Shown one piece after another: positions 38,166-62,227 of a stretch of DNA of 64,000 nt. Position 1 is the first letter of the stretch. Every line of letters begins with the position of its first letter. Source of the stretch: Escherichia coli phage phiS; the sequence record PP449093.1, one strand, 5' to 3'. The notes under the pieces were generated by a model, which saw nothing but the letters and a program-made list of their open reading frames with translations, ran no database searches and was not told the origin of the DNA. The translations under genes were made by a program, and so were the position numbers.

Positions 38166-38194
38166 TTGACAACCATAAACGACTATAGCATAAT
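38166..38194 (+). promoter_or_regulatory. early promoter cassette copy 1 (TTGACA-17-CATAAT)
   Basis: Sigma70-like -35/-10 followed by conserved leader ATCGAAACGAAACAC and SD GGAGAATCAAA ATG. Confidence 0.6.
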
Positions 38195-38231
38195 GCACAT
38201 ATCGAAACGAAACACATTTAGGAGAATCAAA

Positions 38232-38609
38232 ATGATGATGATGTTTAAAGATAAGTTCGAATGTCACTACACCCGTAACTTTTACTTAGTATCCCGCTAC
38301 TACATTCATAAAGAAACTGGTACGCAAGTAGTTCTTGAATCTCACAGCGAAGTAGGATTCGATTCAACAAAAGTAGCAATTAGTGCTCGCTTCTGGGATA
38401 ACGGCAAATTTGCTTATATCGCTTGGAACGACGACGAAAATGTAATTACAGTAGCTTTCGGTGATGACTACTACACTAAAAAGACTTTCGATAGCAAGCC
38501 ATCAAATGAATACCTGAAAGCGTATGTGCAGCACATGTTCCAACGTGTTCTGACCGGAATGGAAATCAATGTCATGAAAGACATTGTAGACGAAGTAAAA
38601 TTTTCTTAA
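38232..38609 (+). CDS. hypothetical protein (125 aa)
   Basis: ORF trimmed to first ATG after the GGAGAATCAAA SD (MMMMFKDK...). Confidence 0.55.
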   Translation: MMMMFKDKFECHYTRNFYLVSRYYIHKETGTQVVLESHSEVGFDSTKVAISARFWDNGKFAYIAWNDDENVITVAFGDDYYTKKTFDSKPSNEYLKAYVQHMFQRVLTGMEINVMKDIVDEVKFS

Positions 38610-38615
38610 AAACAG

Positions 38616-38644
38616 TTGACAACATGAAACGGGGGTAGTAAGAT
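38616..38644 (+). promoter_or_regulatory. early promoter cassette copy 2 (TTGACA-17-TAAGAT)
   Basis: Same cassette architecture with palindromic spacer. Confidence 0.55.
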
Positions 38645-38675
38645 ACACCCACAAACAAACGAAAGGAGAATCAAA

Positions 38676-38834
38676 ATGAAATTTATCGGTAAAACTTTTA
38701 TGTTCGTAGCTGGTACTCTGTTTACTGCAACTCTGTTAGCTGGTGGCTTAGATATCTTTACTGCATTTGAAACTTTCGGGTATACTGTAGCATCGGGTGC
38801 TCTCTTCGGATTGGGTTTAGCGATTAGCAAATAA
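38676..38834 (+). CDS. small membrane protein (52 aa)
   Basis: ORF MKFIGKTFMFVAGTLFTATLLAGG... after SD AGGAGAATCAAA; hydrophobic; below ORF-track cutoff. Confidence 0.5.
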   Translation: MKFIGKTFMFVAGTLFTATLLAGGLDIFTAFETFGYTVASGALFGLGLAISK

Positions 38835-38843
38835 GGTGATAAT

Positions 38844-39047
38844 ATGGAATTTGATATGGTTAAAGCAAAATTTATGGGTAAGGATAAGAGCGGTAAAACA
38901 TTTGTTATTAATAGAACATTGTTTCGCTCTGACCTTAAGTGGGTAACACAACAATTTGCGGAAGTCAACGAGGCAGTTGTGACATGCTTCGTTGATGGTA
39001 AAAAAGTTTTTGAAATTGATCGTCGTGGGATGTCTAATGATCACTAA
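38844..39047 (+). CDS. hypothetical protein (67 aa)
   Basis: ORF with SD GGTGA upstream. Confidence 0.5.
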   Translation: MEFDMVKAKFMGKDKSGKTFVINRTLFRSDLKWVTQQFAEVNEAVVTCFVDGKKVFEIDRRGMSNDH

Positions 39048-39234
39048 ACTGTTTAGCAATACTTTGTTTCTGATTGTATTTGTTTTCTTTCTGTGTCTGA
39101 TGACCGGTGTTGTTACAGTAGGTAGCTATTCCGGTATTACCTTAGATGATTTTTGTGATCTTGTTTTAGTGTCGTTTATTCCTAGTCTACTGGTCGCTTT
39201 ATGTAGTGCTTTAATGTGGGTTTGTAAGCTATGA
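39037..39234 (+). CDS. small membrane protein (65 aa)
   Basis: Hydrophobic ORF MITKLFSNTLFLIVFVFFLCLMTG... Confidence 0.45.
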   Translation: MITKLFSNTLFLIVFVFFLCLMTGVVTVGSYSGITLDDFCDLVLVSFIPSLLVALCSALMWVCKL

Positions 39235-39341
39235 ACGAAATAGACCGAATGATGTTGATAGGTGGACCGGAGTCCACTAAATTTGATGCAATTCTTATTG
39301 CGTTGGGTTTTCTTATGATCTTTTGTATGGTTGCGCTATGA
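39231..39341 (+). CDS. small membrane peptide (36 aa)
   Basis: ATGA overlap with preceding gene; hydrophobic C-terminus ILIALGFLMIFCMVAL. Confidence 0.35.
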   Translation: MNEIDRMMLIGGPESTKFDAILIALGFLMIFCMVAL

Positions 39342-39562
39342 GTAGTATAAAATATTTCGCTTTCTTGTGCTTTATGATGTTCTTTACATTCTTAGCATGT
39401 GTTTTCTTTACCTGGCTTGCTCATGTTGATAATGCAACCGGACCGTTTTACTTCTTCTGTGTATTGTCTGTGTTGACTGGTGCTCTTGTTACGTGGATGA
39501 TTCGAGATTGTTATGGAATGTATAAGTTTGAAAAGACTCGACCGAAATTGGGCAAACGATGA
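39338..39562 (+). CDS. small membrane protein (74 aa)
   Basis: ATGA overlap start; two hydrophobic segments. Confidence 0.45.
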   Translation: MSSIKYFAFLCFMMFFTFLACVFFTWLAHVDNATGPFYFFCVLSVLTGALVTWMIRDCYGMYKFEKTRPKLGKR

Positions 39563-39741
39563 AATTATTTGCGTGGCTAATTATTTTAAATGTAATTGTT
39601 AAGACCGTTCTCGCTGGTCTGATGATGGCGCATAGCACCGAACCAGAAGAAGCATTAACGTATTTTGTTGCTTATGTGTTGGGATTCTTGCTTACTGCGT
39701 GGATGTGTGATGAATATCGAAGAATTGAGGTAAAACCATGA
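39559..39741 (+). CDS. small membrane protein (60 aa)
   Basis: ATGA-coupled ORF; hydrophobic. Confidence 0.45.
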   Translation: MKLFAWLIILNVIVKTVLAGLMMAHSTEPEEALTYFVAYVLGFLLTAWMCDEYRRIEVKP

Positions 39742-39956
39742 AAATGACTTTTTATATCTTAGCAAGTATCATGCTTGTGATCTCTTCTGCACTATTTGCA
39801 TTTCTTACCGTTTGGGGGATCTGTACTGATGCGAAGCCGTGGGATATCGTAGAAAATACGGTTATGTTTATTATTAGTGTCATGTGTCTTTTTGATGCAT
39901 TTAACTCTATCAAGGAAGAAGATCAAAAACGTCGCGAGAGAAAGCGATATAAATAA
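39738..39956 (+). CDS. small membrane protein (72 aa)
   Basis: ATGA-coupled ORF; two hydrophobic segments and basic C-terminus. Confidence 0.45.
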   Translation: MKMTFYILASIMLVISSALFAFLTVWGICTDAKPWDIVENTVMFIISVMCLFDAFNSIKEEDQKRRERKRYK

Positions 39957-39959
39957 TAG

Positions 39960-40106
39960 TGAACTAAAGACAGCGCGGTTAGAATGATTTGGACGTCACC
40001 TAGCCGCATTTATTACAGCGTATGTTGGCGATCCGGTACGCTAAAGCATTCACTTGCTAGGCCGCTAGCAGGTTGGAGACAAGGAAGATTCGCTACCTTC
40101 CCTATA
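39960..40106 (+). ncRNA. candidate structured small RNA (unclassified)
   Basis: 150-nt ORF-free segment with several inverted repeats (GCGGTTAG...CTAGCCGC, GCTAGGCCGCTAGC, GGAAG...CTTCC) ending at a strong terminator. Confidence 0.25.
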
Positions 40107-40132
40107 AGCCACTCTTCGGAGTGGCTTTTTTA
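40107..40132 (+). terminator. Rho-independent terminator
   Basis: Hairpin AAGCCACTCTTCGGAGTGGCTT followed by TTTTTAT. Confidence 0.7.
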
Positions 40133-40158
40133 TTGCCTAAAATTTTTTAAAAAAGTTG

Positions 40159-40187
40159 TTGACACCAGATCCGGCCTATAGCATAAT
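40159..40187 (+). promoter_or_regulatory. early promoter cassette copy 3 (TTGACA-17-CATAAT)
   Basis: Conserved cassette with leader ATCGAAACGAAACAC. Confidence 0.6.
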
Positions 40188-40233
40188 ACACCCATCGAAA
40201 CGAAACACACTTTCTTAAACGGAGAATCAAATT

Positions 40234-40419
40234 ATGGCACGTCGCATCACTAAAGCACTGAAAGCAGTAAGCAAAGAAAACGTAGTAGCTATTCTGGTAA
40301 TCTGGGGTTATAACGAAGAATCCGCTAAACAGAAAGTTGAAGCAGGGTTTGAACTGGCAGTAAAAGCAATGCCGAATGATGACTCTGTAGGACTGGCAAA
40401 CTATATTGCATATTTCTGA
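40234..40419 (+). CDS. hypothetical protein (61 aa)
   Basis: ORF after cassette SD GGAGAATCAAA. Confidence 0.55.
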   Translation: MARRITKALKAVSKENVVAILVIWGYNEESAKQKVEAGFELAVKAMPNDDSVGLANYIAYF

Positions 40420-40427
40420 TAAAAGTG

Positions 40428-40456
40428 TTGACAGGGGAGGATAACTCCCCTACAAT
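40428..40456 (+). promoter_or_regulatory. early promoter cassette copy 4 (TTGACA-17-TACAAT) with GGGGAG/CTCCCC palindrome in spacer
   Basis: TTGACAGGGGAGGATAACTCCCCTACAAT. Confidence 0.6.
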
Positions 40457-40485
40457 ACAAACATCAACGAAACGGGAGAATCAAA

Positions 40486-40707
40486 ATGATTAACTTTAAA
40501 GACGCAGCAAAAGAAATTATCGACTTTGAGCGTGAACTGTTTGAGATGGAACCAAATATGAGTAAACTGGAATTGGCTAACCAGATCTGGTGCTCTAAGA
40601 TGAATCCATCCGACCGCTTAGAAGTTATGAACATCGTAGGCGAAGTGAAAGGTAGTGCATTAATGAAACTCCGCGCTTGTCACGCTTACATCGCTGATCA
40701 ACTATAA
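40486..40707 (+). CDS. hypothetical protein (73 aa)
   Basis: ORF after cassette SD. Confidence 0.55.
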   Translation: MINFKDAAKEIIDFERELFEMEPNMSKLELANQIWCSKMNPSDRLEVMNIVGEVKGSALMKLRACHAYIADQL

Positions 40708-40716
40708 GGGGGTAAT

Positions 40717-40911
40717 ATGGGGGATAAACCATTAGTACAACTAAGAGTACGCTATAACCAGATTTTAGCATTACTTAAAGCTGAGGGTGTAGACCCATCG
40801 GACCGCGAGGCTGTAAAAGCGTGTCTATCTGATACGGTACAGCCAAAACATAATTTTGCTTGTTATATGTACTTTTACAATAGGTTGAATAGACCGTTTG
40901 AGTTTGAATAA
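40717..40911 (+). CDS. hypothetical protein (64 aa)
   Basis: ORF with SD GGGGG upstream. Confidence 0.5.
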   Translation: MGDKPLVQLRVRYNQILALLKAEGVDPSDREAVKACLSDTVQPKHNFACYMYFYNRLNRPFEFE

Positions 40912-40933
40912 CGTTAAGTGTTGAGGTGATACT

Positions 40934-41122
40934 ATGGAAGACCAAATTGAACAATTACGCGAATCCGCTAAAGAGCATGGTATGAGCGAAGCGTTTGTAG
41001 AATGGTTTATCTCTAAAAAGGTTGATTCCTGCGGGTGCTTTAACTTCCTTACTATGTCCATTATGTGGGAAGGTTGGAAAGGTGCTGTAGAAACTGCTCT
41101 AGAAATTATGAAAAAAGACTAA
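40934..41122 (+). CDS. hypothetical protein (62 aa)
   Basis: ORF with SD GAGGTG upstream. Confidence 0.5.
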   Translation: MEDQIEQLRESAKEHGMSEAFVEWFISKKVDSCGCFNFLTMSIMWEGWKGAVETALEIMKKD

Positions 41123-41130
41123 AAAAGTTG

Positions 41131-41159
41131 TTGACACGCGAGAGGGTGTATAGCATAAT
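41131..41159 (+). promoter_or_regulatory. early promoter cassette copy 5 (TTGACA-17-CATAAT)
   Basis: GGGTGTAT/ATACACCC palindrome spanning the -10. Confidence 0.6.
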
Positions 41160-41201
41160 ACACCCATCGAAACGAAACACGAACTACTAAGGAGTATCAA
41201 A

Positions 41202-41528
41202 ATGAAACCAGTATCTGTTAAAGTTATCTTCTCTGAATCTTCTGTATTCGCTAACGCAAACGAAGTATTCCACTTCGAAGACTTCGAGCGTAAAGCACAG
41301 GACGCGGCAGCAAAAGCCTATGAAAGCGAATATGACAAAACTCAAATCGAGGTTACTTTCGAAAACGGCACTACTTACGCTTGCCGCCTTGACCTGGGTG
41401 ATCGTCTGTCTGGCTTCCGTCACCATGTAGAGAAGACAATCGCTTTCTCTAAAACCGAAAAAGGAAAACACTACTTTTCTGTTTTCGGTACTAAAAATCT
41501 GGATTTCTTGAAAACTGTTTCTTTCTAA
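41202..41528 (+). CDS. hypothetical protein (108 aa)
   Basis: ORF after cassette SD AGGAGTATCAAA. Confidence 0.55.
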   Translation: MKPVSVKVIFSESSVFANANEVFHFEDFERKAQDAAAKAYESEYDKTQIEVTFENGTTYACRLDLGDRLSGFRHHVEKTIAFSKTEKGKHYFSVFGTKNLDFLKTVSF

Positions 41529-41536
41529 GGTATATT

Positions 41537-41719
41537 ATGAAAAAGATTAATTGGTTAGCGAACATAGGCGCGGTCTGCGCCTTTAACATCCTCGGATGGA
41601 TAATGTTACATTTTGATGAGCGAGTTTCAAAATGTGAGGGTGCATTGATTCTCGGATCTGCTAGCATATTCATTATGCTGTATGTAATTGCTGTTGACTT
41701 AAGCCGCGAGGATTGTTAA
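41537..41719 (+). CDS. small membrane protein (60 aa)
   Basis: Hydrophobic ORF. Confidence 0.45.
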   Translation: MKKINWLANIGAVCAFNILGWIMLHFDERVSKCEGALILGSASIFIMLYVIAVDLSREDC

Positions 41720-41720
41720 T

Positions 41721-41915
41721 ATGAATATTACTAATACGGCTATCGGATTTTCTAGCGCCTTTGCTAGTTTCTTTGCGCTGGTCTGTATGTTTGTTTTTAT
41801 TCCTGTTGTATATCTTGGATATTGTGATATTGAAATTGCATTGATTGCTGGGATCTATATGTGGGTTGCGGTCTTTGTTCTTTCTGTTATAATGTGCAAG
41901 ATTATTGACCATTGA
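41721..41915 (+). CDS. small membrane protein (64 aa)
   Basis: Hydrophobic ORF, two predicted TM segments. Confidence 0.45.
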   Translation: MNITNTAIGFSSAFASFFALVCMFVFIPVVYLGYCDIEIALIAGIYMWVAVFVLSVIMCKIIDH

Positions 41916-41937
41916 TTAACTATGTGAGGATTATACT

Positions 41938-42258
41938 ATGAGCAAACTGTTTGAAACTCCGCGTGAAATTCTAATTGATAAGCTGAAACAACGTGGTTTT
42001 AAAATCAAAGATGCAACCAAATACAGCCGAATTGATGAAATTAAGTTGCATTCTCTTGATGAACTGGTAGAATATGTTGCGGCAGTGGCTGATCCGCAGT
42101 TTGATGTGATTGTAGGTGACGTTGAATATCTCGATAATGTATATTCATTCTTCACTTATGGTAAAATTGTGTCTGTGAAAATATCATTCTGTGAAAATGT
42201 GGAGGTGCTTGCTAGTGAACCAGAAAAACCAACTGACAACGGTCCTACGGCAGCGTAA
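41938..42258 (+). CDS. hypothetical protein (106 aa)
   Basis: ORF preceded by TGAGGATTATACTATG initiation motif. Confidence 0.55.
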   Translation: MSKLFETPREILIDKLKQRGFKIKDATKYSRIDEIKLHSLDELVEYVAAVADPQFDVIVGDVEYLDNVYSFFTYGKIVSVKISFCENVEVLASEPEKPTDNGPTAA

Positions 42259-42529
42259 CAAGGAAGACCGTCTGATTTATGCGCTGGCGGTTATCCTTGA
42301 AAAAGAATTACCGGATCTTGATGTAGTTTTTACTGACCGACCAGTAGGCCAACGTTACGGAGGATATGACAGCCTAGTTTATCCATCATATAGCATTGAA
42401 ATGTGGGTAGAAGATTTTAAAAACTTGGCTGATACATCTAAACCGCTTTATTTGTGGGATGTTGAGTATAATTGCGATCCTAACTGGCCTGGCATTAATG
42501 TTTATGCGTCTATGACTTTAAAGGTGTGA
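42191..42529 (+). CDS. hypothetical protein (start uncertain, GTG/ATG within upstream gene)
   Basis: Long ORF overlapping the preceding gene by about 65 nt; true start not resolved. Confidence 0.4.
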   Translation: MKMWRCLLVNQKNQLTTVLRQRNKEDRLIYALAVILEKELPDLDVVFTDRPVGQRYGGYDSLVYPSYSIEMWVEDFKNLADTSKPLYLWDVEYNCDPNWPGINVYASMTLKV

Positions 42530-42531
42530 TA

Positions 42532-42690: not shown

Positions 42691-42751
42691 TTAACAATGC
42701 GGGTAGGGTAATGTACTACCCGCACTAAATTAGCTCACTGGAGGGCTTTCT

Positions 42752-43116: not shown

Positions 43117-43118
43117 CA

Positions 43119-43334: not shown

Positions 43335-43335
43335 T

Positions 43336-43527: not shown

Positions 43528-43555
43528 ATATTATCACTCACAAAGGGGGTGAATA

Positions 43556-47205: not shown

Positions 47206-47447
47206 TGTATGTGATGACACCTTATAGTAACCGCAAGTATATTACACCTAATACACTGTATGAATATACACCACATGAAAGATTTTCGAATAGTGGTTAT
47301 ATCCGTGATGATAAGGGACACCAGATTTTTATTTGTCTTAAAAATTGTGCACACTTAGACGGTCGAACCTGGACACTGGTCGAAGAACCAAAACAACATG
47401 AGAATAAAGGTCTTTGGAATGTGCTAAAAAAATTCTTGAAAAAGTAG
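47202..47447 (+). CDS. hypothetical protein, tandem paralog family member 2
   Basis: ATGA overlap start; same family pattern. Confidence 0.5.
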   Translation: MMYVMTPYSNRKYITPNTLYEYTPHERFSNSGYIRDDKGHQIFICLKNCAHLDGRTWTLVEEPKQHENKGLWNVLKKFLKK

Positions 47448-47478
47448 TTGACAGCATGAAACGGGGGGGTAGTAATAT
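47448..47478 (+). promoter_or_regulatory. early promoter cassette copy 6
   Basis: TTGACA ... GGGGGGGTAGTAATATACCCCC palindrome; leader ATCGAAACAAAGGAGTATTAAA ATG. Confidence 0.55.
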
Positions 47479-47506
47479 ACCCCCATCGAAACAAAGGAGT
47501 ATTAAA

Positions 47507-47842
47507 ATGAGTGTTAAAGAAGTGTTTGTTTATACCGACTATGACGGGTGCGCCTATCTCACTGCTGGAAAACTTTACCGTTGTGAGATTATTCATGGTA
47601 CGCTAGGTCGAATTATGTGCGATCCGATTACAAAATTGTGGAAAAATAATCCTAGTGAGCGAGAAACTCTTATTAACCTAGATCCAGACGGTTGTTCACA
47701 TTTGGACTATAGAAAATGGCATATAGTTACACATGATGCTTATGGTATTCATCTTGCTACTAAAGAATTAACTATTGACAAGTTCAAGTTTAAAGAAATC
47801 CCGTTTGTATACTGGCTTCGCAATTTGTTTAAGAAAGGATAA
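47507..47842 (+). CDS. hypothetical protein, tandem paralog family member 3
   Basis: ORF trimmed to ATG after cassette SD (MSVKEVFVYTDYDGCAYLTAGKLY...); same family pattern. Confidence 0.55.
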   Translation: MSVKEVFVYTDYDGCAYLTAGKLYRCEIIHGTLGRIMCDPITKLWKNNPSERETLINLDPDGCSHLDYRKWHIVTHDAYGIHLATKELTIDKFKFKEIPFVYWLRNLFKKG

Positions 47843-47846: not shown

Positions 47847-48269
47847 ATGGAAACAATTAACGTACATGTTCGCCGTAGTAAGCTGCGTAGATTCTTCGAA
47901 ACCGAAATGCGCAAAACCAATGCGCAGATCAAAGAAAAGTGCTTGAATGATGGTTACGGTGAGTATATTTTCATTCGCTTTAGTCCGCATATGATCGACC
48001 GTCTAACCGATCGTCATATCGATGAACATAAGACAATGGAACTATTCAATAAGATAGAAACTCGTTTGCCGGAGATCTTCGACTTCCTGAAAATGGAAGA
48101 CCGTCCGAATCGATTAGAAATTACTGACGGTAACATGTGGATCGGGATGACAGTAGATCTAATCGAAGACGGCAAGCCATATCACGGTCTATGCTGCCGA
48201 ATGATTATAGAGAATCCAAAACGACTGGCGGGTAAAATGTCGGCGGTTGTTTTGAAGGTAGACCAATAA
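47847..48269 (+). CDS. hypothetical protein (140 aa)
   Basis: ORF trimmed to METINVHV after SD AAGGA. Confidence 0.5.
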   Translation: METINVHVRRSKLRRFFETEMRKTNAQIKEKCLNDGYGEYIFIRFSPHMIDRLTDRHIDEHKTMELFNKIETRLPEIFDFLKMEDRPNRLEITDGNMWIGMTVDLIEDGKPYHGLCCRMIIENPKRLAGKMSAVVLKVDQ

Positions 48270-48292: not shown

Positions 48293-48319
48293 TTGACTTT
48301 CTGGTGATAGGGCTATATT
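48293..48319 (+). promoter_or_regulatory. sigma70-like promoter (TTGACT-15-TATATT)
   Basis: Upstream of the secreted transglycosylase gene. Confidence 0.35.
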
Positions 48320-48355
48320 ATGGAATCAGAAAGTTAAGCCAAACAGGAGAAATTA

Positions 48356-48946
48356 ATGTTAAAAGTTCTAAAAGCGATAGTATTGAGTCTGTCACTAGCC
48401 GTTGGTGCTACACACGCATCGACTAGCGCACCGATCAAAAAAGCGCCGATAGACAACTTTACAGCACACCAACTAGATAATTTACATTTCGCCTATCAAT
48501 ACGGCGAGCAATTCGAGAAAAGCGGTAAGTTGAAAAAGTACCATCCGAATATTCGCTATAACGGAAAGGGTTTAGGTCACATCCTGGCGGGTATCGCATG
48601 GCAAGAATCAAGCGCGGGTGCAAACTTAGCACCAAAGAAAAATCATCATGCTTATGGATTATTTCAAAATTACCTTAAAACGGTGAAAGCGAAAAATGCA
48701 AAGCGCGGTGTTAAAATGAGTGATCGCCAGACTATCAACTTTATCATGAATCGCGAGGTTTCTGCATTCTACGCGATGGATGAGTTAGCATACTGGCTGG
48801 ATGTTCGAAACGGTAATATCCGACTCGCGCTAGCTTCTTACAATGCAGGGTGGAACTATAAAGCCGGGTTAGGTTATGCTGATGACGTACTAAAAAAGGC
48901 TAACCATCTAAAGAGTAAAGGCATTCTTAAGACTAAACGCTATTGA
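48356..48946 (+). CDS. secreted lytic transglycosylase (SLT domain) with signal peptide
   Basis: N-terminal signal peptide MLKVLKAIVLSLSLAVGATHA; SLT-like motifs AWQESSAG, AYGLFQ and SYNAGW. Confidence 0.6.
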   Translation: MLKVLKAIVLSLSLAVGATHASTSAPIKKAPIDNFTAHQLDNLHFAYQYGEQFEKSGKLKKYHPNIRYNGKGLGHILAGIAWQESSAGANLAPKKNHHAYGLFQNYLKTVKAKNAKRGVKMSDRQTINFIMNREVSAFYAMDELAYWLDVRNGNIRLALASYNAGWNYKAGLGYADDVLKKANHLKSKGILKTKRY

Positions 48947-51821: not shown

Positions 51822-52053
51822 TGTTAGCCACTGTGGGATGCATACCAGAAGTAAAAGAATACTAGCATTAACACAACTATTTGGCTTCCTCATACTTTCT
51901 CGTGTTCAATTACTACCGAATCGGAAGACCCGTCTAAGACGAGGAAGGGTTATCATTGGAAAGGGATGGTGAATTGGTTACTATGTTTAACTAGTTTAGC
52001 AAAGGTCGATTCAAACACTACTATACAAATGGACGTGAATAAAATATAATCAA

Positions 52054-52086
52054 AAGCCATCCGAAAGGGTGGCTTTTTCGTTTTTA
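52054..52086 (+). terminator. Rho-independent terminator
   Basis: Hairpin AGCCATCCGAAAGGGTGGCT followed by TTTTTCGTTTTT. Confidence 0.55.
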
Positions 52087-52090
52087 GGTG

Positions 52091-52119
52091 TTGACAACCG
52101 GAATAGGGTATAGCATAAT
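52091..52119 (+). promoter_or_regulatory. early promoter cassette copy 7 (TTGACA-17-CATAAT)
   Basis: Conserved cassette; leader ATCGACAACAAAGGAGAATCAAA ATG. Confidence 0.6.
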
Positions 52120-52148
52120 GCACACATCGACAACAAAGGAGAATCAAA

Positions 52149-52358
52149 ATGATTAATCCAGTAGCCGCAGCACTTGCCCCCGAAGAAACTTTGAAGTATA
52201 TGGTAGAACATGCAGCAAAGAAAGGAGAAATTGTTACTGCCGATGAGATCGTAGAAACCATGCTCCGCGATCCGAAGGGTAACACTGCAAAGTTTTTTGG
52301 TGATCATCTTAAACTGGCTTACAAAACAATTATGGAGACCGTGAAGAATGCAAAATGA
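52149..52358 (+). CDS. hypothetical protein (69 aa)
   Basis: ORF after cassette SD. Confidence 0.55.
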   Translation: MINPVAAALAPEETLKYMVEHAAKKGEIVTADEIVETMLRDPKGNTAKFFGDHLKLAYKTIMETVKNAK

Positions 52359-53033: not shown

Positions 53034-53314
53034 AAGACACAAACGGATTTAACAGCATTCAGGTAAGCCCGAATTTTATTGTTCCATCACTGGTGACTAA
53101 GCTGAATGGTCATATGGTCGCTTTGTCTTCCACACCGCCAGAATCAGGAAAGTTTATCACTATCGTAGTTTATGCGGGGCAAATTTTCTCTCATGATTGC
53201 TGCATGAAAAATGATCAGTTGATGGTTGCAAATTATGACTACGGCGACCTTGAATGGGAAGTTTTAGACCTGGCTAAAAGTGCTGAAATTCTGGGCTATA
53301 TTCGATTAATTTAA
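53030..53314 (+). CDS. hypothetical protein (94 aa)
   Basis: ATGA-coupled ORF. Confidence 0.5.
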   Translation: MKDTNGFNSIQVSPNFIVPSLVTKLNGHMVALSSTPPESGKFITIVVYAGQIFSHDCCMKNDQLMVANYDYGDLEWEVLDLAKSAEILGYIRLI

Positions 53315-53332
53315 AATTTTTCTTAGAAAGTG

Positions 53333-53361
53333 TTGACAGCGATCCGGTGTTATTGCACAAT
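53333..53361 (+). promoter_or_regulatory. early promoter cassette copy 8 (TTGACA-17-CACAAT)
   Basis: Conserved cassette; SD AGGAGAATCAACA ATG. Confidence 0.5.
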
Positions 53362-53400
53362 ACACACATCGAAGCACGACACTTTCTAGGAGAATCAACA

Positions 53401-53691
53401 ATGACCACTGAACAATTAATCAAACATATCCGCAGTATTATCTGGGATCTGTCTGGCGATAAAGAGGAACAAGCCGAACGCATTTTAGCTAAACTGTATA
53501 AACGCCGCGATCGTGGAGTATCAGCAAAGAAAGTAGAAACTTTCAAAGAATTGTCTTTCATCGAAGCTAAAAAGGATGGATTAATTTATCAGTTGACAGA
53601 TGGTTACTGGTGCTATGATAATACTCGCTATGACACCTCGACTGATGCATTAAAAGCATGTAATGACCATCTTCGCAAAACTACCATTTGA
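53401..53691 (+). CDS. hypothetical protein (96 aa)
   Basis: ORF trimmed to ATG after cassette SD. Confidence 0.55.
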   Translation: MTTEQLIKHIRSIIWDLSGDKEEQAERILAKLYKRRDRGVSAKKVETFKELSFIEAKKDGLIYQLTDGYWCYDNTRYDTSTDALKACNDHLRKTTI

Positions 53692-55187: not shown

Positions 55188-55416
55188 CAGAGTATTCATT
55201 GTCCTGATGGAGTCCGAAAACTATCCCGAACTCGCTAAAACGCGTTTTCCGTGCGTTGTTGAAGCATATAAGACAGATGCGCCAGATAAACAGTTTATCG
55301 TGTTAGCGAGCGAAATAGAGCGGTTGGGCGTGATTCCTAAACATGATGAATACGTGTTTCGTAATGTGTACTCTGTACATCATTTTGATGTAGTAGTTAA
55401 TTCACTAATATCATAA
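55153..55416 (+). CDS. hypothetical protein (start uncertain)
   Basis: ORF overlapping the previous gene; candidate starts at 55153 or 55207. Confidence 0.35.
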   Translation: MKSKTGFYNQCNRVFIVLMESENYPELAKTRFPCVVEAYKTDAPDKQFIVLASEIERLGVIPKHDEYVFRNVYSVHHFDVVVNSLIS

Positions 55417-55424
55417 AAAAGTTG

Positions 55425-55453
55425 TTGACAGGGGATCGCGTATCCCCTATACT
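55425..55453 (+). promoter_or_regulatory. early promoter cassette copy 9 (TTGACA-17-TATACT) with GGGGAT/ATCCCC palindrome
   Basis: TTGACAGGGGATCGCGTATCCCCTATACT then conserved leader. Confidence 0.6.
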
Positions 55454-55495
55454 ACACACATCAAAACGAAACACACTTTCTTAAGGAGAATCAAA

Positions 55496-55774
55496 ATGAG
55501 CAACCTTTCTTTCGCTAAAGTAGAAATTTCCAAAACTCGTGGTGGTATCAAAATCAAAACTTCCAATATCACGTCCTGCCGTGGTTGCGACCAGTTTGCT
55601 CGTGACCTGGCTGTTAAGCTGGGTATTAAAACCTTTACCGTTGAGAGCGGATCTAACTGGACCACTCTGATTGTTACTGCCGCTTGGATCAATGGCGAGT
55701 ATGTGGAAAAAGCATACTTTGACATTTTCTATGACTACGAAGAAAAATGCTTTTATGCACTGCAAGACATGTAA
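55496..55774 (+). CDS. hypothetical protein (92 aa)
   Basis: ORF after cassette SD. Confidence 0.55.
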   Translation: MSNLSFAKVEISKTRGGIKIKTSNITSCRGCDQFARDLAVKLGIKTFTVESGSNWTTLIVTAAWINGEYVEKAYFDIFYDYEEKCFYALQDM

Positions 55775-57278: not shown

Positions 57279-57288
57279 GGATTATATA

Positions 57289-58513: not shown

Positions 58514-59269
58514 ATGTCACCAATGTTAAAATATGAGGTTATACACAAGACTCCAGAAGATAAACGTTTATATGATTTATATCATTCACGGTTTTATTAT
58601 GATGATGGTTTTCTTAGGTGGAAGATTCACCCGCACCGAAAAGGTGTTATAAACGGATTAGCTGGAAGTGATACCCCCGATGGGTATCGTATTGTATGGA
58701 CTGGCGAGCGATACGAACGTATGCACCGTGTTATCTATCATATGTTTCATGGTCATTGTCCTAAGTATATAGATCATAAAGACCGAGATCGTTATAATAG
58801 CCGCATTGAAAACCTTAGAGAGACGACAAGCAAACAAAATAATATGAATATGAGCAAGACCAAATGCAAAACATATTCGAAGTATAAAGGTGTGTCGTTT
58901 AATAAGAATAAAGGTTATTGGACTGGTGCAATAATGTTGGATGGGAAGTCGATACATTTAGGATATTTTCCCTCTGAGATCGGTGCGGCGTATGCATATA
59001 ATCTTGCAGCGTTGAAACATTTTGGTGATAGGTCTTGTATAAACGAGATTGATGATATAGAATATGCAAAGTCTGAATATGACAAGAAGCTCCAAAAAGC
59101 AGCAAGTTCCCGTCATAGATACGTTTACAAAGTACCAAAACAAGGTAATTACGGTGCTAAAGTTCGCGGTGTGTATATAGGAAGATTTGACACAGAATAT
59201 GATGCGGCACGGGCAGTTAATGCCTATATTATTGAAAATGAACTTGATATAGAACTGAATGAGGTATAA
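58514..59269 (+). CDS. HNH homing endonuclease with two AP2-like domains
   Basis: HNH motif IDHKDRDRYNSRIENLRETTSKQN; AP2-like YKGVSF...GYWTGAIMLDGKSIHLGYF...AAYAYNLAALKHFG and a second AP2-like repeat. Confidence 0.75.
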   Translation: MSPMLKYEVIHKTPEDKRLYDLYHSRFYYDDGFLRWKIHPHRKGVINGLAGSDTPDGYRIVWTGERYERMHRVIYHMFHGHCPKYIDHKDRDRYNSRIENLRETTSKQNNMNMSKTKCKTYSKYKGVSFNKNKGYWTGAIMLDGKSIHLGYFPSEIGAAYAYNLAALKHFGDRSCINEIDDIEYAKSEYDKKLQKAASSRHRYVYKVPKQGNYGAKVRGVYIGRFDTEYDAARAVNAYIIENELDIELNEV

Positions 59270-59270
59270 T

Positions 59271-59576: not shown

Positions 59577-60050
59577 ATGTTACTGACTGCTAAGAGTGCT
59601 AAAGAGTACAAACAAGAACTATTCGAAAAACAGGGGGGCATTTGCCCCCTTTGTCAAATGCCACTTTTTGAGGATATGAGCAAAAACCATCTTGACCACG
59701 ACCACGATCTAGATGGGAAAGGGCAAGGCCGAGTAAGGGGATTGCTTCATTCGTGTTGCAACCGCCTAGAAGGATCGTTGACCGGAGACTTTAAACGGTT
59801 TGGTGTTGGTGCTTTAGGTGCTGACTTCGTTGTTTGGGCTACAAACTATGTTAATTACATCAAAGGAGACTACACCAACAATCATTTACATCCTCAATAT
59901 GCTGTTGATAAAGTAAAACGATTTTCACGCTTGACACGCGCGGAGATGGTTGCTATTATGGACGCAGAAGGTTTCGATTACTGCGACGCTGATACACGAG
60001 AAGAGATCACGAAGAAGTATAAGAAACAATTTATACAAAGATTAAGATAG
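59577..60050 (+). CDS. 49: endonuclease VII (Holliday junction resolvase, gene 49)
   Basis: MLLTAKSAKEYKQELFEKQGGICPLCQ...NHLDHDHDLDG...VRGLLHSCCN resembles recalled T4 endo VII. Confidence 0.85.
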   Translation: MLLTAKSAKEYKQELFEKQGGICPLCQMPLFEDMSKNHLDHDHDLDGKGQGRVRGLLHSCCNRLEGSLTGDFKRFGVGALGADFVVWATNYVNYIKGDYTNNHLHPQYAVDKVKRFSRLTRAEMVAIMDAEGFDYCDADTREEITKKYKKQFIQRLR

Positions 60051-60053
60051 TAG

Positions 60054-60082
60054 TTGACAATAAGAAATGGGAGTAGTAAAAT
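60054..60082 (+). promoter_or_regulatory. early promoter cassette copy 11 (TTGACA-17-TAAAAT) with GGGAGTA/TACTCCC palindrome
   Basis: TTGACAATAAGAAATGGGAGTAGTAAAATACTCCC then SD AGGAGAATCAACA ATG. Confidence 0.6.
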
Positions 60083-60113
60083 ACTCCCATCTAATCAAGA
60101 AGGAGAATCAACA

Positions 60114-60386
60114 ATGCGTAAGATGTTTAAATCCGGTGTGGCCTATGTTTTTAAATCTGAGCAAGCACATAAAGACTTCTTAGATGATGAATACGAAGGG
60201 GTGAAAGATACCTACGAAGTCATCAAGAATGGGTTTACTGTTCTTAAAGTGTCACCTGTTGGTTATGTAAGTGAAATCTCAGTTGATGGGAAAACATACA
60301 CCGCTAAAGACTTTGATCCGCGTTGGGAATTTATGCTGCTTCCGTGTGAGCGCATTCTGTTCCGTGCTGTTCAATTAGTGAAATGA
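60114..60386 (+). CDS. hypothetical protein, one-module member of paralog family C
   Basis: MRKMFKSGVAYVFKSEQAHKDF...NGFTVLKV...VDGKTYTAKDF...W; module shared with the next two ORFs. Confidence 0.55.
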   Translation: MRKMFKSGVAYVFKSEQAHKDFLDDEYEGVKDTYEVIKNGFTVLKVSPVGYVSEISVDGKTYTAKDFDPRWEFMLLPCERILFRAVQLVK

Positions 60387-60400
60387 TAGAGGATTATATT

Positions 60401-60961
60401 ATGGTACAGAAAACGTATAAATTGTATCCGGCTAAGTCTTCAAATGATGCTGTTTTTGAACGAGGTCGTTATTACACTTTCCGTAATGCTGAGTCCGCAG
60501 AGGAATTTGTTAAACGCTATCCACAACATAACAAGTTCCTGTATGGTGTGCTTCACAAGGGCTTTAAAGTTCTGACTGTTAATGTTATGGGTAAAGTGTA
60601 TTTGGTAGAAACTCATGATTATGAGGGCGCGTCAATCATGATTGATGCCAGCGAGCGCAAATACTTTAAGCGTATCACTAAAAAGCAGTTTGAAGAAATG
60701 AAGCCAGTTAAGAAAGAAGAATCGCTGGAAGATCTGATTAACTTGTTTGCGAAGTCTTCTTTGGTATCATTGACGCTGGAAGATTTTAGCGTTGATAATC
60801 AGCTATACTTTAAAAATGCCGATGACCTGAAAGATTTTTTGATTGAGAATAAACCTAAGCTAGAAACCTATATCAAAGGTGAGATTAAGCGCATGGAACA
60901 TCAAGCAAAATATAGCGCAGATAAAGTAGCTGAACTGAAAGAGATCCAAAAGTCACTTTAA
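60401..60961 (+). CDS. hypothetical protein, family C (one N-terminal module plus coiled-coil tail)
   Basis: Preceded by GAGGATTATATTATG; N-terminal module and C-terminal tail LKDFLIENKPKLETYIKGEIKRMEHQ paralogous to 61025-62203. Confidence 0.55.
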   Translation: MVQKTYKLYPAKSSNDAVFERGRYYTFRNAESAEEFVKRYPQHNKFLYGVLHKGFKVLTVNVMGKVYLVETHDYEGASIMIDASERKYFKRITKKQFEEMKPVKKEESLEDLINLFAKSSLVSLTLEDFSVDNQLYFKNADDLKDFLIENKPKLETYIKGEIKRMEHQAKYSADKVAELKEIQKSL

Positions 60962-60964
60962 CGC

Positions 60965-60993
60965 TTGACATGATGAAACGGGAGTAGTAAGAT
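60965..60993 (+). promoter_or_regulatory. early promoter cassette copy 12 (TTGACA-17-TAAGAT) with GGGAGTA/TACTCCC palindrome
   Basis: Near-identical to copy 11. Confidence 0.6.
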
Positions 60994-61024
60994 ACTCCCA
61001 TCTAAACAACGAGAGGATTATATT

Positions 61025-62203
61025 ATGGCTCAATTCTTTGAAGGGCATTACTATGCATTCCGTGAAGGCGGTAAAGATGAGTTTCTAGACTTTTCTCGCT
61101 ATTCAATTACTCTGACCGATGATTCGCGCCGTGGTCATATTCGGGTTGCTGAAATCGTAGAAAACGGTTTTAAAGTATTAGAAAAAGATGACCACGGTCA
61201 TGTTGTTACTATTGAAGCTGGAGATGTAGTTTATTCCTCTGAGGATATTGTGGACTATTGGGCTACTATGTTTATGCACAATGAGCGTAAATTCTTTAAA
61301 CGTATCTCAAAAGAGGCATACGAAGCAATGAACAAGAAAGAAGATGTAATGCCGACTTACTTTGAAAAAGGTAAGTGCTATTCGTTTACCCCAGAAGGTT
61401 TGCAAGAATTTAAGCGATTCTGGGGAGAGCATGATCCAGATCACAAAGAAGCCATGAAACTTGTTGATTTTGTTGAATATGGCTTTTTAGTTGAAGAAGA
61501 ATTTCATGGGTCGGCTACCATGATCACCGCGAAAGGTGAAACCGTTAAGGCGGATCGTTTTTGTGATCAATGGGCGTGTGTGATTGACGGTGGCGAATTT
61601 GAATACTTCGCTGAAATCACGAAACAACAATTTCATTCTATGCAAGCGGCTGGTCAGAGATTTAAAGTAGGTGAACGCTACAAGCCAAATCAGCATAATT
61701 TGCCATATTGGTTTACCGCTGAAACTGTATCAAGTCATGTTGTTGAAATTGTTCAAAAGCTGGGACAAGGATTTAAGGTAACTAAAGTAGATGATTATGG
61801 AAGTGTTGACGCGGTTGAAATTGATGGTGTAGAATATACACCGAAATCTTTCGGGCTTTGCTGGTATCACCTGATCAGCAATGATGAACGTTATTACTTT
61901 GTTGAACTGCCATCTGAACCGGAAGAAGCACTAGAAGATCATGATCATCTGTCTGAACTGGTTAAACTGTTTGGTGATCTGCCGGATGGTGTAGGCGTGG
62001 CGGTAATGGGTGAAGGTGCTGTTATCCGAAACCTGAAAGACCTTAAAAAGTTCTTGATTGACATGCTGCCTAAACTTGATGATAATCTCGATAAAGATAT
62101 TCAGAATCGCAAAGAAATTGTTAAAGATACTGAAAAAGAGATCGAAGAGATTCGAGCAATTCGCCAGAAGGTGAAAGCAGTAAAGAAAAAAGTTAGTGCT
62201 TGA
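61025..62203 (+). CDS. hypothetical protein, family C (three tandem internal modules plus coiled-coil tail)
   Basis: 392-aa ORF with three approximately 100-aa repeats (Y-x-F ... GF-x-VL ... ERKFFKRI-like ends) and C-terminal LKDLKKFLIDMLPKLDDNLDKD... coiled coil. Confidence 0.6.
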   Translation: MAQFFEGHYYAFREGGKDEFLDFSRYSITLTDDSRRGHIRVAEIVENGFKVLEKDDHGHVVTIEAGDVVYSSEDIVDYWATMFMHNERKFFKRISKEAYEAMNKKEDVMPTYFEKGKCYSFTPEGLQEFKRFWGEHDPDHKEAMKLVDFVEYGFLVEEEFHGSATMITAKGETVKADRFCDQWACVIDGGEFEYFAEITKQQFHSMQAAGQRFKVGERYKPNQHNLPYWFTAETVSSHVVEIVQKLGQGFKVTKVDDYGSVDAVEIDGVEYTPKSFGLCWYHLISNDERYYFVELPSEPEEALEDHDHLSELVKLFGDLPDGVGVAVMGEGAVIRNLKDLKKFLIDMLPKLDDNLDKDIQNRKEIVKDTEKEIEEIRAIRQKVKAVKKKVSA

Positions 62204-62227
62204 CATGCGAAGGGAGTATGCTATAAT
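62200..62227 (+). promoter_or_regulatory. early promoter cassette copy 13 (TTGACA-16-TATAAT) with GGGAGTAT/ATACTCCC palindrome
   Basis: CTTGACATGCGAAGGGAGTATGCTATAATACTCCC then GAGAGGATTATATTATG. Confidence 0.6.

What the first reader, a model, noticed from the sequence alone, without database searches (positions are those of the whole stretch)
38166..62227. At least 13 copies of a conserved promoter/leader cassette (PeSL-like) punctuate the early region
Repeated units of about 70 bp contain TTGACA, a spacer that usually carries an inverted repeat whose downstream arm overlaps or directly follows the -10 (for example GGGAGTAGTAAGATACTCCC), a -10 hexamer, the leader ATCGAAACGAAACAC, and SD GGAGAATCAAA ATG. 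Copies sit near 38166, 38616, 40159, 40428, 41131, 47448, 52091, 53333, 55425, 56099, 60054, 60965 and 62200, each in front of a small ORF. This resembles the promoter-early stem-loop (PeSL) cassettes I recall being proposed as recombination modules in T4-type hyperplastic regions. The palindromes could be operators or RNA hairpins if read through from upstream.
Basis: partly seen in the sequence, partly recalled or inferred. Interest (0 to 1): 0.6.

Follow-up and report, generated by a model that had tools for sequence, protein, structure and literature searches.

The report
Known PeSL promoter cassettes, RB49-like phage
The repeats are real and are the already published "PeSL" early-promoter/stem-loop cassettes of RB49-type T4-like coliphages; the window adds one clean example of gene loss by recombination between two of them, but no new kind of element.

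Summary
Observation confirmed. All 13 coordinates carry an exact TTGACA, a 16-19 nt spacer, a -10, a short leader, an SD and an ATG. Similarity extends well beyond the sigma-70 hexamers. The window is a Krischvirus (RB49/JSE/phi1 group, about 96% identical to JSE). Cassette 55425 is 80/83 identical to RB49 PeSL211/210, the element whose stem-loop was tested as a terminator. Corrections: the stem is embedded in the promoter in 9 of 13 copies (8 significantly stable). Three copies instead have a canonical upstream terminator, and one has only a weak bulged stem. The leader ATCGAAACGAAACAC is exact in only 3 copies. Three copies use a different SD module. At least four more cassette-like sites exist, two of them on the - strand. 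New support: stem arms are conserved among orthologues while loops and adjacent spacer vary (p=6e-4), and paralogous stems show compensatory changes. At 53388-53424 the window has a junction found in none of 58 related records, where two cassettes recombined within the shared AGGAGAATCAA and removed ORF080 and gene 38. My inference: GGAGAAUCAAA doubles as a RegB/S1 cleavage site (10/11 match to the published consensus). Most other indels here are homing-endonuclease insertions.

The parts
38129..38234 (+). PeSL cassette 1. Canonical terminator 38129-38149 plus T-run, -35 38166-38171, -10 CATAAT 38189-38194, predicted +1 38201 (start of ATCGAAACGAAACAC), SD GGAGAATCAAA 38221-38231, ATG 38232 (125-aa ORF). 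No embedded stem.
38596..38678 (+). PeSL cassette 2. AT-rich upstream region, -35 38616, -10 TAAGAT. Stem GGGGGTA/TACACCC overlaps the -10 and has one window-specific G.A mismatch; it is a perfect TACCCCC in 8 relatives. SD GGAGAATCAAA 38665, ATG 38676 (52 aa).
40106..40236 (+). PeSL cassette 3. Canonical terminator 40106-40127 plus T-run, -35 40159, -10 CATAAT, leader ATCGAAACGAAACAC from 40194, SD GGAGAATCAAA 40221, ATG 40234 (61 aa).
40408..40488 (+). PeSL cassette 4. -35 40428, stem GGGGAG/CTCCCC wholly within the spacer (z -5.0), -10 TACAAT, SD GGAGAATCAAA 40475, ATG 40486 (73 aa).
41111..41204 (+). PeSL cassette 5. -35 41131, stem GGGTGTAT/ATACACCC overlapping -10 CATAAT (z -4.7), leader ATCGAAACGAAACAC from 41166, SD GGAGTATCAAA, ATG 41202 (108 aa).
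47428..47509 (+). PeSL cassette 6. -35 47448, abutting the stop codon of the upstream ORF. Stem GGGGGTA/TACCCCC overlaps -10 TAATAT. A 7-G run (5 in all relatives) makes the spacer 19 nt. SD GGAGTATTAAA, ATG 47507 (111 aa). The regB gene follows.
52052..52151 (+). PeSL cassette 7. Canonical terminator 52052-52077 plus T-run, -35 52091, -10 CATAAT, SD GGAGAATCAAA 52138, ATG 52149 (69 aa). The segment just upstream (51822-52047) is replaced by other DNA in JK32 and phi1.
53313..53403 (+). PeSL cassette 8, a recombinant. It has the promoter of the cassette that precedes ORF080 in relatives (-35 53333, -10 CACAAT, weakened from CATAAT). At AGGAGAATCAA it is joined to the ORF078 homologue (ATG 53401, 96 aa). 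Only a weak bulged stem.
53388..53424 (+). Cassette-to-cassette recombination junction. This stretch aligns to both sides of a 1117-1120 bp segment (ORF080 + gene 38 + terminator) present in RB49, JSE, phi1, E26 and JK32, and of a roughly 246-283 bp segment (ORF080 only) in kvi-type phages. None of 58 related records has the window's contiguous arrangement.
55405..55498 (+). PeSL cassette 9. -35 55425, stem GGGGAT/ATCCCC within the spacer, -10 TATACT, leader ATCAAAACGAAACAC, SD GGAGAATCAAA 55485, ATG 55496 (92 aa). It is 80/83 identical to RB49 PeSL211/210, whose stem-loop was assayed as a terminator.
   Evidence: PMC2839356
56079..56164 (+). PeSL cassette 10. Consensus promoter (TTGACA-17-TATAAT, -35 at 56099). 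Stem TGTGGTTAT/ATAGCCGCA overlaps the -10 and has two U.G pairs on the sense strand. SD module GAGGAATATATT, ATG 56162 (102 aa).
60034..60116 (+). PeSL cassette 11. -35 60054, stem GGGAGTA/TACTCCC overlapping -10 TAAAAT (z -5.3), SD GGAGAATCAAC, ATG 60114 (90 aa).
60945..61027 (+). PeSL cassette 12. -35 60965, stem GGGAGTA/TACTCCC overlapping -10 TAAGAT, SD module GAGGATTATATT, ATG 61025 (frd.2, 392 aa).
62180..62260 (+). PeSL cassette 13. -35 62200-62205, which contains the TGA stop codon of frd.2. 16-nt spacer, stem GGGAGTAT/ATACTCCC overlapping -10 TATAAT, SD module GAGGATTATATT, ATG 62258 (164 aa).
24347..24445 (-). Additional cassette on the - strand inside the baseplate module, between gene 8 and a small-ORF cluster. 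It has a canonical terminator, TTGACA (24406)-16-TATAAT, leader ACACACATCTAAACAAC as in cassette 12, an SD and ATG 24349 (85-aa ORF).
15325..15400 (-). Additional cassette-like promoter. TTGACT (15385)-18-TATGAT with a 14-bp stem overlapping the -10, and SD AGGAGAATCAT-ATG. It precedes ORF 14743-15327, whose N-terminus looks GIY-YIG-like by eye.
35473..35537 (+). Promoter-like site (TTGACA-17-TAGATT, SD AGGAG) at the left edge of a 592-bp HNH homing-endonuclease insertion absent from all relatives. No PeSL-type stem. A weak candidate.
48293..48358 (+). Conserved promoter-like site (TTGACT-17-TATTAT, SD AGGAG) upstream of vs.1 (ATG 48356). A weaker candidate member.
47847..48269 (+). regB gene (site-specific RNA endonuclease, by position and annotation of the orthologues). 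It is the inferred trans-acting partner of the cassettes' GGAGAAUCAAA module.
   Evidence: for position and annotation; the link is an inference from PMC1702504

Best explanation
These are PeSLs (promoter-early stem-loops), the composite regulatory cassettes described in phages phi1 and RB49, here in a close relative.

Each unit of about 80-130 bp fills an intergenic gap in the early, hyperplastic region. It contains:
(i) an AT-rich stretch or a canonical terminator;
(ii) a near-consensus sigma-70 promoter with an exact TTGACA and usually a 17-nt spacer;
(iii) usually a G/C-rich hairpin placed in the spacer or across the -10 and discriminator, so that it lies entirely upstream of the cassette's own start site;
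(iv) a conserved start context (C then A, 7 nt after the -10) and a 22-40 nt A/C-rich leader;
(v) a conserved SD-spacer-ATG module.

Proposed working: host RNA polymerase fires each cassette immediately after infection. The hairpin appears only in transcripts reading through from upstream, where it attenuates or terminates them and insulates each small ORF unit. Because about 100 bp is shared among dozens of copies, the phage's homologous recombination machinery can cross over between copies, deleting, inserting or swapping the ORFs in between.

Shown here: the anatomy, conservation beyond the hexamers, selection on stem pairing, near-identity to a published tested PeSL, and one cassette-to-cassette deletion junction. 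Taken from the literature: promoter activity, terminator activity of the GGGGAT/ATCCCC stem, and mini-circles. Inferred by me: the GGAGAAUCAAA module is also a RegB/S1 cleavage site that shuts these early mRNAs off.
For: Identity of the genome: (96% to JSE; the hits are RB49, phi1 and other Krischvirus). Definition and experiments: PMC2839356 and PMC4122927.

Anatomy. Similarity beyond the hexamers.

Cassette 55425 is 80/83 identical to RB49 PeSL211/210, which lies at another locus about 123 kb into the RB49 genome.

Stem selection among 8-9 orthologues: arms vary in 9/130 columns, against 25/109 for the loop plus the spacer 5' of the stem (Fisher p=6e-4). The loop of 55425 has at least 5 variants with an invariant stem.

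Paralogue covariation: stem pair 4 is G-C, T-A or A-T; pair 2 is G-C or C-G; pair 5 is G-C or T-A. The stem of 56099 has a different sequence in the same register.

Recombination: the junction at 53388-53424 lies within the shared AGGAGAATCAA. The locus has three cassette-bounded states among 58 records, and the window's state is unique.

Further support: a second hot spot ends at the terminator of cassette 52091. LF73P4 carries six extra cassettes. A - strand copy in the baseplate module precedes ORFs of unknown function, as the paper describes for core-module PeSLs.
Against: No transcription start or 3'-end data exist for this phage in what I could search, so promoter use and termination are not shown for these copies.

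None of the promoter-embedded stems is followed by a T-run, so they are not canonical intrinsic terminators. The published assay covered one stem only.

In this window only 2-3 of about 10 indel events touch a cassette. Four are HNH homing-endonuclease insertions, two end at a different SD module and one is a tandem duplication. PeSL recombination is therefore one contributor among several, and the enrichment is not statistically strong.

The crossover used only about 11-12 nt of identity, so microhomology-mediated deletion cannot be told apart from true homologous exchange.
Confidence: 0.9

Rival explanations
1. They are simply strong early promoters that look alike through common descent and selection for sigma-70 consensus, with ordinary neighbouring hairpins. 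They play no special part in gene shuffling, and the deletion at 53388-53424 is an incidental microhomology event.
For: Only 2-3 of about 10 indels in this region touch a cassette. Four are homing-endonuclease insertions, and two end at a different conserved SD motif. The crossover shares only about 11-12 nt.
Against: Conservation extends over about 100 bp, well beyond the hexamers. Near-identical cassettes sit at unrelated loci in front of unrelated ORFs. One locus has three cassette-bounded states. Mini-circles with chimeric PeSLs have been published (PMC2839356).
Confidence: 0.1
2. The palindromes are DNA-level operators, or binding or cleavage sites for a phage protein such as a repressor, a recombination protein or endonuclease VII acting on extruded cruciforms. 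On this view they are not RNA hairpins.
For: The stems overlap the core promoter, where a bound protein would block RNA polymerase. Many arms share GGGG...CCCC, and the original authors speculated about a recombination protein. Gene 49 (endonuclease VII) is encoded nearby, at 59577-60050.
Against: Arm sequences differ between copies, with compensatory changes at 3 of 7-8 pair positions. Cassette 56099 has an unrelated arm sequence in the same register. Stem position relative to the -35 and -10 varies. The four wobble-type arm variants are all G.U on the sense strand, which would be A.C mismatches on the other strand (4 versus 0, p=0.06).
Confidence: 0.07
3. The embedded hairpins act on read-through RNA, but not as terminators. 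They would be 3'-end protective structures or processing signals that define and stabilise the upstream mRNA.
For: No T-run follows any embedded stem. G.U pairs are tolerated on the sense strand only. The hairpin lies just after the upstream stop codon, 0-18 nt away in most copies.
Against: The GGGGAT/ATCCCC stem reduced downstream lacZ about as much as rrnB T1 in the published assay (PMC2839356), although a reporter drop does not separate termination from processing.
Confidence: 0.2

Closest known systems
PeSLs (promoter-early stem-loops) of coliphages phi1 and RB49 (Arbiol et al. 2010, PMC2839356; Comeau et al. 2014, PMC4122927)
   Same: The genus is the same. So is the architecture: AT-rich or terminator region, TTGACA, 17-nt spacer, -10, a G/C-rich stem in variable position, SD and ATG. 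The location is the same, intergenic in the hyperplastic early region before small ORFs of unknown function. There is the same association with indels. One copy is 80/83 identical to the published PeSL211/210.
   Different: Nothing essential. This phage has its own complement: a unique fused cassette at 53333, a degraded stem at 38616 and a 19-nt spacer at 47448. In this window homing endonucleases account for more indels than PeSLs do.
T4 RegB/S1 target sites (GGAGRAYARAA; T4 consensus GGAGAAUAAAA; Durand et al. 2006, PMC1702504)
   Same: The cassette SD module GGAGAAUCAAA matches 10 of 11 positions. It sits in the SD of early transcripts, is predicted to be single-stranded, and regB is encoded in the same region.
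   Different: Position 8 is C where the consensus strongly prefers A. Cleavage at these sites was not tested here. GGAG alone is also the SD of about 20 of 52 non-cassette genes.
Promoter/stem-loop elements at the T-even internal-protein loci (Repoila 1994, as discussed in PMC2839356)
   Same: They are composite early-promoter and stem-loop units flanking highly variable small genes, and are proposed as recombination linkers.
   Different: According to the authors they are analogues, not homologues. They are based on T4-type early promoters and have weaker, AT-rich stems.
Integron gene cassettes, lambdoid 'morons' and Botstein's linker sequences
   Same: They involve small genes that move together with expression signals, and conserved flanking sequences that target exchange to harmless sites.
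   Different: No integrase or attC-type site is involved here. Unlike morons, the regulatory sequence itself is the proposed site of exchange.

Membership tests
PeSL (Arbiol 2010) | Sigma-70 consensus early promoter (-35 and -10 boxes) | tested here: met
   Exact TTGACA in 13/13 copies. Spacer 17 nt in 11/13. The -10 has A2 and T6 in all copies.
PeSL (Arbiol 2010) | [quoted passage not shown] | tested here: met
   The 25 nt upstream are 68-84% AT in 10/13 copies, against a 60.6% background. The three lower ones carry a terminator there. The upstream stop codon lies -4 to 18 nt from the -35 in 10/13 copies.
PeSL (Arbiol 2010) | Stable stem-loop, often polyG/polyC, in one of five positions relative to the promoter | tested here: met
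   The stem is in the spacer (2 copies), overlaps the -10 (7, one degraded) or lies upstream of the -35 as a terminator (3). One copy is weak.
PeSL (Arbiol 2010) | SD and start codon of a downstream gene, typically an ORFan, at the 3' end | tested here: met
   An SD and ATG are present in 13/13 copies. 11/13 downstream ORFs are 52-125 aa and annotated hypothetical in JSE and RB49.
PeSL (Arbiol 2010) | Sequence conservation over about 100 bp among copies; preferential location in hyperplastic regions | tested here: met
   13 copies lie in the 24-kb early region, against 2 in the 33-kb late-gene half.
PeSL (Arbiol 2010) | Sequence homology to published PeSLs | tested here: met
   Cassette 55425 versus RB49 PeSL211/210 is 80/83 identical. 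Orthologues of all stem cassettes are present in RB49 and phi1.
PeSL (Arbiol 2010) | Association with insertions, deletions or replacements between related phages | tested here: met
   A unique junction at 53388-53424 and a three-state locus. Replacements end at the terminator of 52091. However, only 2-3 of about 10 events are involved.
PeSL (Arbiol 2010) | Promoter activity, attenuation by the stem-loop, and formation of mini-circles | not testable with these tools
   Published for RB49 and phi1 elements only. The tested stem equals that of window cassette 55425.
RegB/S1 target site (Durand 2006) | 11-nt single-stranded GGAGRAYARAA in an intergenic or SD position of an early mRNA | tested here: inconclusive
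   GGAGAAUCAAA matches 10/11, with C at position 8. There are 6 exact copies, all in cassettes, against 0.63 expected for the degenerate pattern. Cleavage is untested.
Canonical intrinsic terminator | G/C-rich hairpin immediately followed by a T-run | tested here: not met
   This is met only by the upstream hairpins of 38166, 40159, 52091 and 24406(-). None of the 9 promoter-embedded stems has a T-run.

The most novel reading that the evidence does not exclude
The cassette may be a self-contained 'early-only' expression module with three timing devices that travel together. The first is a -35-dependent promoter. The second is an RNA-level insulator hairpin that works without a U-tract. The third is an SD-spacer (GGAGAAUCAAA) that doubles as a RegB/S1 cleavage site. 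Any ORF captured between two cassettes would then automatically be switched on at infection and have its mRNA inactivated minutes later. A corollary is that gene 38 (the tail-fibre adhesin) sits in a cassette-bounded slot and is gained or lost through these elements, linking PeSL recombination to host range.
Probability: 0.35. Interest if true: 0.4.

Novelty: already known. Interest (0 to 1): 0.2.

Why it matters
PeSLs are one of the few concrete, sequence-defined mechanisms proposed for how large lytic phages shuffle accessory genes. This window does not change that picture but gives independent support. It shows selection on stem pairing, near-identical cassettes at unrelated loci, and a clean cassette-to-cassette junction that removed the adhesin gene 38 and its neighbour from a locus with three alternative cassette-bounded states. 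It also tempers the claim, since in this region homing endonucleases account for more indels than PeSLs. The RegB-site reading of the conserved SD module, if confirmed, would explain why the SD-to-ATG spacer is as conserved as the promoter.

Tried and rejected
(1) An IMG/VR scan for more relatives gave only two loci, so orthologue statistics rest on 8-10 genomes.

(2) A first orthologue count was contaminated by cross-matches of cassette 41131 to its paralogue 55425 in loci that do not cover that region. I redid it requiring syntenic flanks.

(3) The MAFFT alignment of paralogous stems put 7-bp and 8-bp stems in different registers, so one structure string could not be applied with the count of structure pairs. 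I tabulated the pairs by script instead.

(4) The G.U versus A.C strand-asymmetry test gave 4 versus 0 sites, p=0.06. That is suggestive, not significant.

(5) GGAG as such is not specific to cassettes: it is in 10/13 cassette SDs but also in about 20/52 other SDs. Only the full 11-nt module is cassette-specific.

(6) I looked for TSS or primer-extension data on RB49 early promoters. Nothing usable was held, and the supplements of the PeSL paper are not held.

(7) Whether phages lacking gene 38 at this locus carry a divergent copy elsewhere could not be read from the tblastn listing. The window itself has none.

(8) Rfam has no family matching the region.

(9) Operator hypothesis: rejected as the main reading because arms covary. 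Chance or artefact: rejected.

Full report
WHAT THE WINDOW IS. A megablast of window 38000-48000 against GenBank phages hits 60 records, all Krischvirus (RB49, JSE, phi1 and relatives). The best is JSE at 96% identity over the whole query. GC skew changes sign near 34 kb. The orthologous annotation shows baseplate genes on the - strand up to about 33.7 kb. After that, on the + strand, come genes 4, 2, 3, 1, 57A and 57B. The early 'hyperplastic' region follows: dmd, many small ORFs, vs.8, vs.6, nrdC.11, regB, vs, tk, rI, more small ORFs, dam, nrdC, 49, frd.2 and nrdD.

CHECK OF THE OBSERVATION. Every one of the 13 coordinates carries an exact TTGACA in a cassette-like context. A neutral scan of both strands recovers them, and the tool's sigma-70 scanner ranks them at the top, almost all on the + strand. 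TTGACA-N17-TANNAT occurs 9 times against 0.23 expected.

This is not met:
- 24 of 68 non-hexamer columns exceed the 99th percentile of random columns.
- One third of cassette pairs share an exact match of at least 12 nt (maximum 32), against 0.6% of pairs of other gene-upstream regions.
- The repeat finder reports families of 33-86 nt.

Several details need correcting:
- The leader ATCGAAACGAAACAC is exact in three copies and off by one base in a fourth.
- GGAGAATCAAA is exact in six copies and a near variant in four.
- Copies 56099, 60965 and 62200 use another conserved module, GAGGAWTATATT-ATG, which is also found at many internal genes.
- The downstream ORFs are 52-125 aa in 11 cases but 392 and 164 aa in two.

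THE HAIRPINS. Folding the 42-nt promoter cores gives significant hairpins in eight copies, with z from -2.3 to -5.3.
- In 41131, 47448, 56099, 60054, 60965 and 62200 the stem overlaps the -10 and discriminator.
- In 40428 and 55425 it lies wholly within the spacer.
- Copy 38616 has the same design, but with a window-specific C-to-A change that breaks one pair. All eight relatives have a perfect stem.
- Copy 53333 is weak.
- Copies 38166, 40159 and 52091 have no embedded stem. Each has a canonical hairpin-plus-T-run terminator 20-40 nt upstream of the -35.

These are the positional subclasses the original paper describes. None of the embedded stems is followed by a T-run. All of them lie upstream of the predicted start site, so they would appear only in transcripts reading through from upstream.

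START SITE AND LEADER. Seven nt after the -10 there is an A in all 13 copies, preceded by C in 12. The conserved 'ATCGAAAC...' begins exactly there. This gives 5'-UTRs of 22-40 nt (the printed coordinates are one base low because of an indexing slip, and I have corrected them here). This is prediction only. I found no mapped 5' ends for this phage group.

IDENTITY WITH PeSLs. PeSLs were defined in phi1 and RB49. The definition is a repeated unit made of a sigma-70 consensus promoter, an AT-rich upstream region, a stem-loop often of polyG/polyC in one of five positions, and the SD and ATG of a downstream ORFan. About 52 were reported per genome, mostly in hyperplastic regions, with a few inside core modules next to genes of unknown function (PMC2839356).

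The authors showed promoter activity for two PeSLs. They also showed that the stem-loop of PeSL211/210 lowers downstream lacZ about as much as rrnB T1. I located PeSL211/210 in RB49. It is 80/83 identical to window cassette 55425, with the same GGGGAT/ATCCCC stem and one loop difference, although it lies at a different locus in front of a different ORF. The published assay therefore applies directly to a stem present here.

The - strand copy at 24406 sits between gene 8 and a cluster of small ORFs and a methyltransferase. It fits the paper's remark about core-module PeSLs. All sequence-level membership criteria are met.

IS THE STEM SELECTED? I extracted syntenic orthologues of nine stem-bearing cassettes from 8-9 relatives. 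The proportion of variable columns was:
- -35 hexamer: 1/54
- stem arms: 9/130 (7%)
- loop: 8/52
- spacer 5' of the stem: 17/57 (30%)
- leader: 9/164
- SD to ATG: 4/103
- first codons: 20/205

Arms are significantly more conserved than the adjacent loop and spacer (p=6e-4). The loop of 55425 has at least five variants with an unchanged stem.

Among paralogues, stem pair 4 is G-C, T-A or A-T. Pair 2 is G-C or C-G. Pair 5 is G-C or T-A. Cassette 56099 has a wholly different arm sequence in the same register relative to the -10. So pairing, not arm sequence, is what is kept. This argues against a sequence-specific operator.

The four wobble-type arm variants are three sites in 56099 and one in 60054 of phi1 and ECD7. 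All are G.U on the sense strand and none is A.C. This favours an RNA-level role but is not significant (p=0.06). The few disruptive changes are all C-to-A in the 3' arm.

RECOMBINATION. I compared the window with RB49, JSE, phi1, kvi, E26 and JK32. The clearest event is at 53388-53424. This stretch aligns to both sides of a 1117-1120 bp segment in five genomes.

Base-level inspection shows the arrangement in RB49 and JSE as cassette A, ORF080, gene 38, terminator, cassette B, ORF078. In kvi it is cassette A, ORF080, a different cassette B', ORF078. In the window the promoter and leader of cassette A are joined to ORF078 inside the shared AGGAGAATCAA.

Among 58 related records, 45 have the long form, 13 the intermediate form, and none the window's form. 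Neither gene 38 nor ORF080 is found elsewhere in the window.

A second variable spot lies just upstream of cassette 52091. JK32 has 2.2 kb where the window has 224 bp, ending at the cassette's terminator, and phi1 has another variant. LF73P4 carries six cassettes not seen in the others.

The other events do not involve PeSLs:
- Four precise insertions are HNH-AP2 or HNH-NUMOD4 homing endonucleases (35535-36068, 43991-44566, 45750-46277, 58514-59269).
- Two events end at the GAGGATTATA..ATG module.
- One is a tandem duplication.

PeSL-mediated exchange is therefore real here but is a minority of events, and my sample is too small for a strong enrichment statistic.

THE SD MODULE AND RegB (my inference). 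The SD-to-ATG spacer is as conserved as the promoter. Durand et al. showed that T4 RegB, with ribosomal protein S1, needs an 11-nt single-stranded site, GGAGRAYARAA. The T4 in vivo consensus is GGAGAAUAAAA. The site is typically in the SD of early mRNAs, and sites mapped in RB49 conform (PMC1702504).

The cassette module GGAGAAUCAAA matches 10 of 11 positions. Its six exact copies are all in cassettes (0.63 expected for the degenerate pattern), and regB lies at 47847-48269. GGAG alone is not cassette-specific. I rate this reading as plausible but untested.

VERDICT. The element is already known, in this very phage group. The window contributes a unique cassette-to-cassette deletion of ORF080 and gene 38, evidence for selection on stem pairing, and a testable idea about the SD module. 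Rfam holds no matching family. Later literature in the held library adds only the 2014 extension to other T4-like phages and a citing cyanophage paper.

Noticed in passing
window 53388-53424 (compare L002 34350-35660, L005 15570-16010): The window lacks ORF080 and gene 38 (tail-fibre adhesin/assembly protein), which lie here in 45 of 58 related records. 13 records keep ORF080 only, and none shares the window's junction. No gene 38 homologue is found anywhere in the 64-kb window. Whether one exists elsewhere in the genome is unknown.
   Followed up: yes
window 35535-36068, 43991-44566, 45750-46277, 58514-59269: These are four free-standing HNH homing-endonuclease genes (HNH_3 with AP2 or NUMOD4). 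The first and last are precise insertions absent from all relatives examined. 35745-35824 and 44216-44295 are 76% identical, so these are paralogues.
   Followed up: partly
window 14743-15400 (- strand): ORF 14743-15327 begins [21 protein letters not shown], which looks GIY-YIG-like (seg-type endonuclease) by eye only. It has its own promoter-like site (TTGACT-18-TATGAT), a 14-bp stem across the -10 and SD AGGAGAATCAT. It lies in the late-gene half of the window.
   Followed up: no
window 47463-47469: The G-run in the 5' arm of cassette 47448 is 7 long, against 5 in all eight relatives. This lengthens the promoter spacer from 17 to 19 nt. It is either a real weakening of this promoter or a homopolymer sequencing error.
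   Followed up: partly
window 34187-34212, 41915-41940, 43978-43997, 49306-49331, 53688-53725, 56139-56164, 57276-57295, 60378-60403, 61002-61027, 62235-62260: A second conserved translation-initiation module, (T)GAGGATTATATT-ATG, recurs at many gene starts, with or without a cassette. Two indel ends (41922 and 53914-53937) fall at it, so it may also serve as a short recombination linker.
   Followed up: partly
window 54376-54443 and 54592-54659: An 85%-identical direct repeat marks a tandem duplication of about 216 bp that gives two paralogous small ORFs (54370-54573 and 54631-54849). JSE, kvi and JK32 have one copy.
   Followed up: partly
window 62200-62205 and 47445-47453: Signals are packed very tightly. 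The TGA stop codon of frd.2 lies inside the -35 hexamer T-TGA-CA of cassette 62200. The TAG stop of the ORF before cassette 47448 directly abuts its TTGACA.
   Followed up: yes
window 51822-52047: The segment between rI.-1 and cassette 52091 is a replacement hot spot. It is 224 bp here, 2160 bp (one 2.1-kb ORF of unknown function) in JK32, and a different small ORF (084.1) in phi1.
   Followed up: partly
window 33660-33725: This site lies between the divergent genes 53 and 4. A promoter-like site (TTGATA-16-TATAAT) is enclosed by a 12-bp inverted repeat (TTTTAGCACCCT / AGGGTGCTAAAA, about -37 kcal/mol in context). It is conserved in RB49, JSE, phi1 and E26. Function not examined.
   Followed up: no
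L010 (Krischvirus LF73P4) 22898-29955: LF73P4 carries six cassette types not seen in the other genomes in this region. These include extra copies of the GGGAGTA/TACTCCC and GGGTGTAT/ATACACCC stem classes, which implies additional cassette-bounded ORFs.
   Followed up: no
window 38641, 53358, 53366: Three window-specific substitutions weaken cassette features that are conserved in all relatives. One is the stem mismatch in 38616. Another changes the -10 from CATAAT to CACAAT in the fused cassette 53333. The third changes ACACCC to ACACAC in the same cassette.
   Followed up: partly
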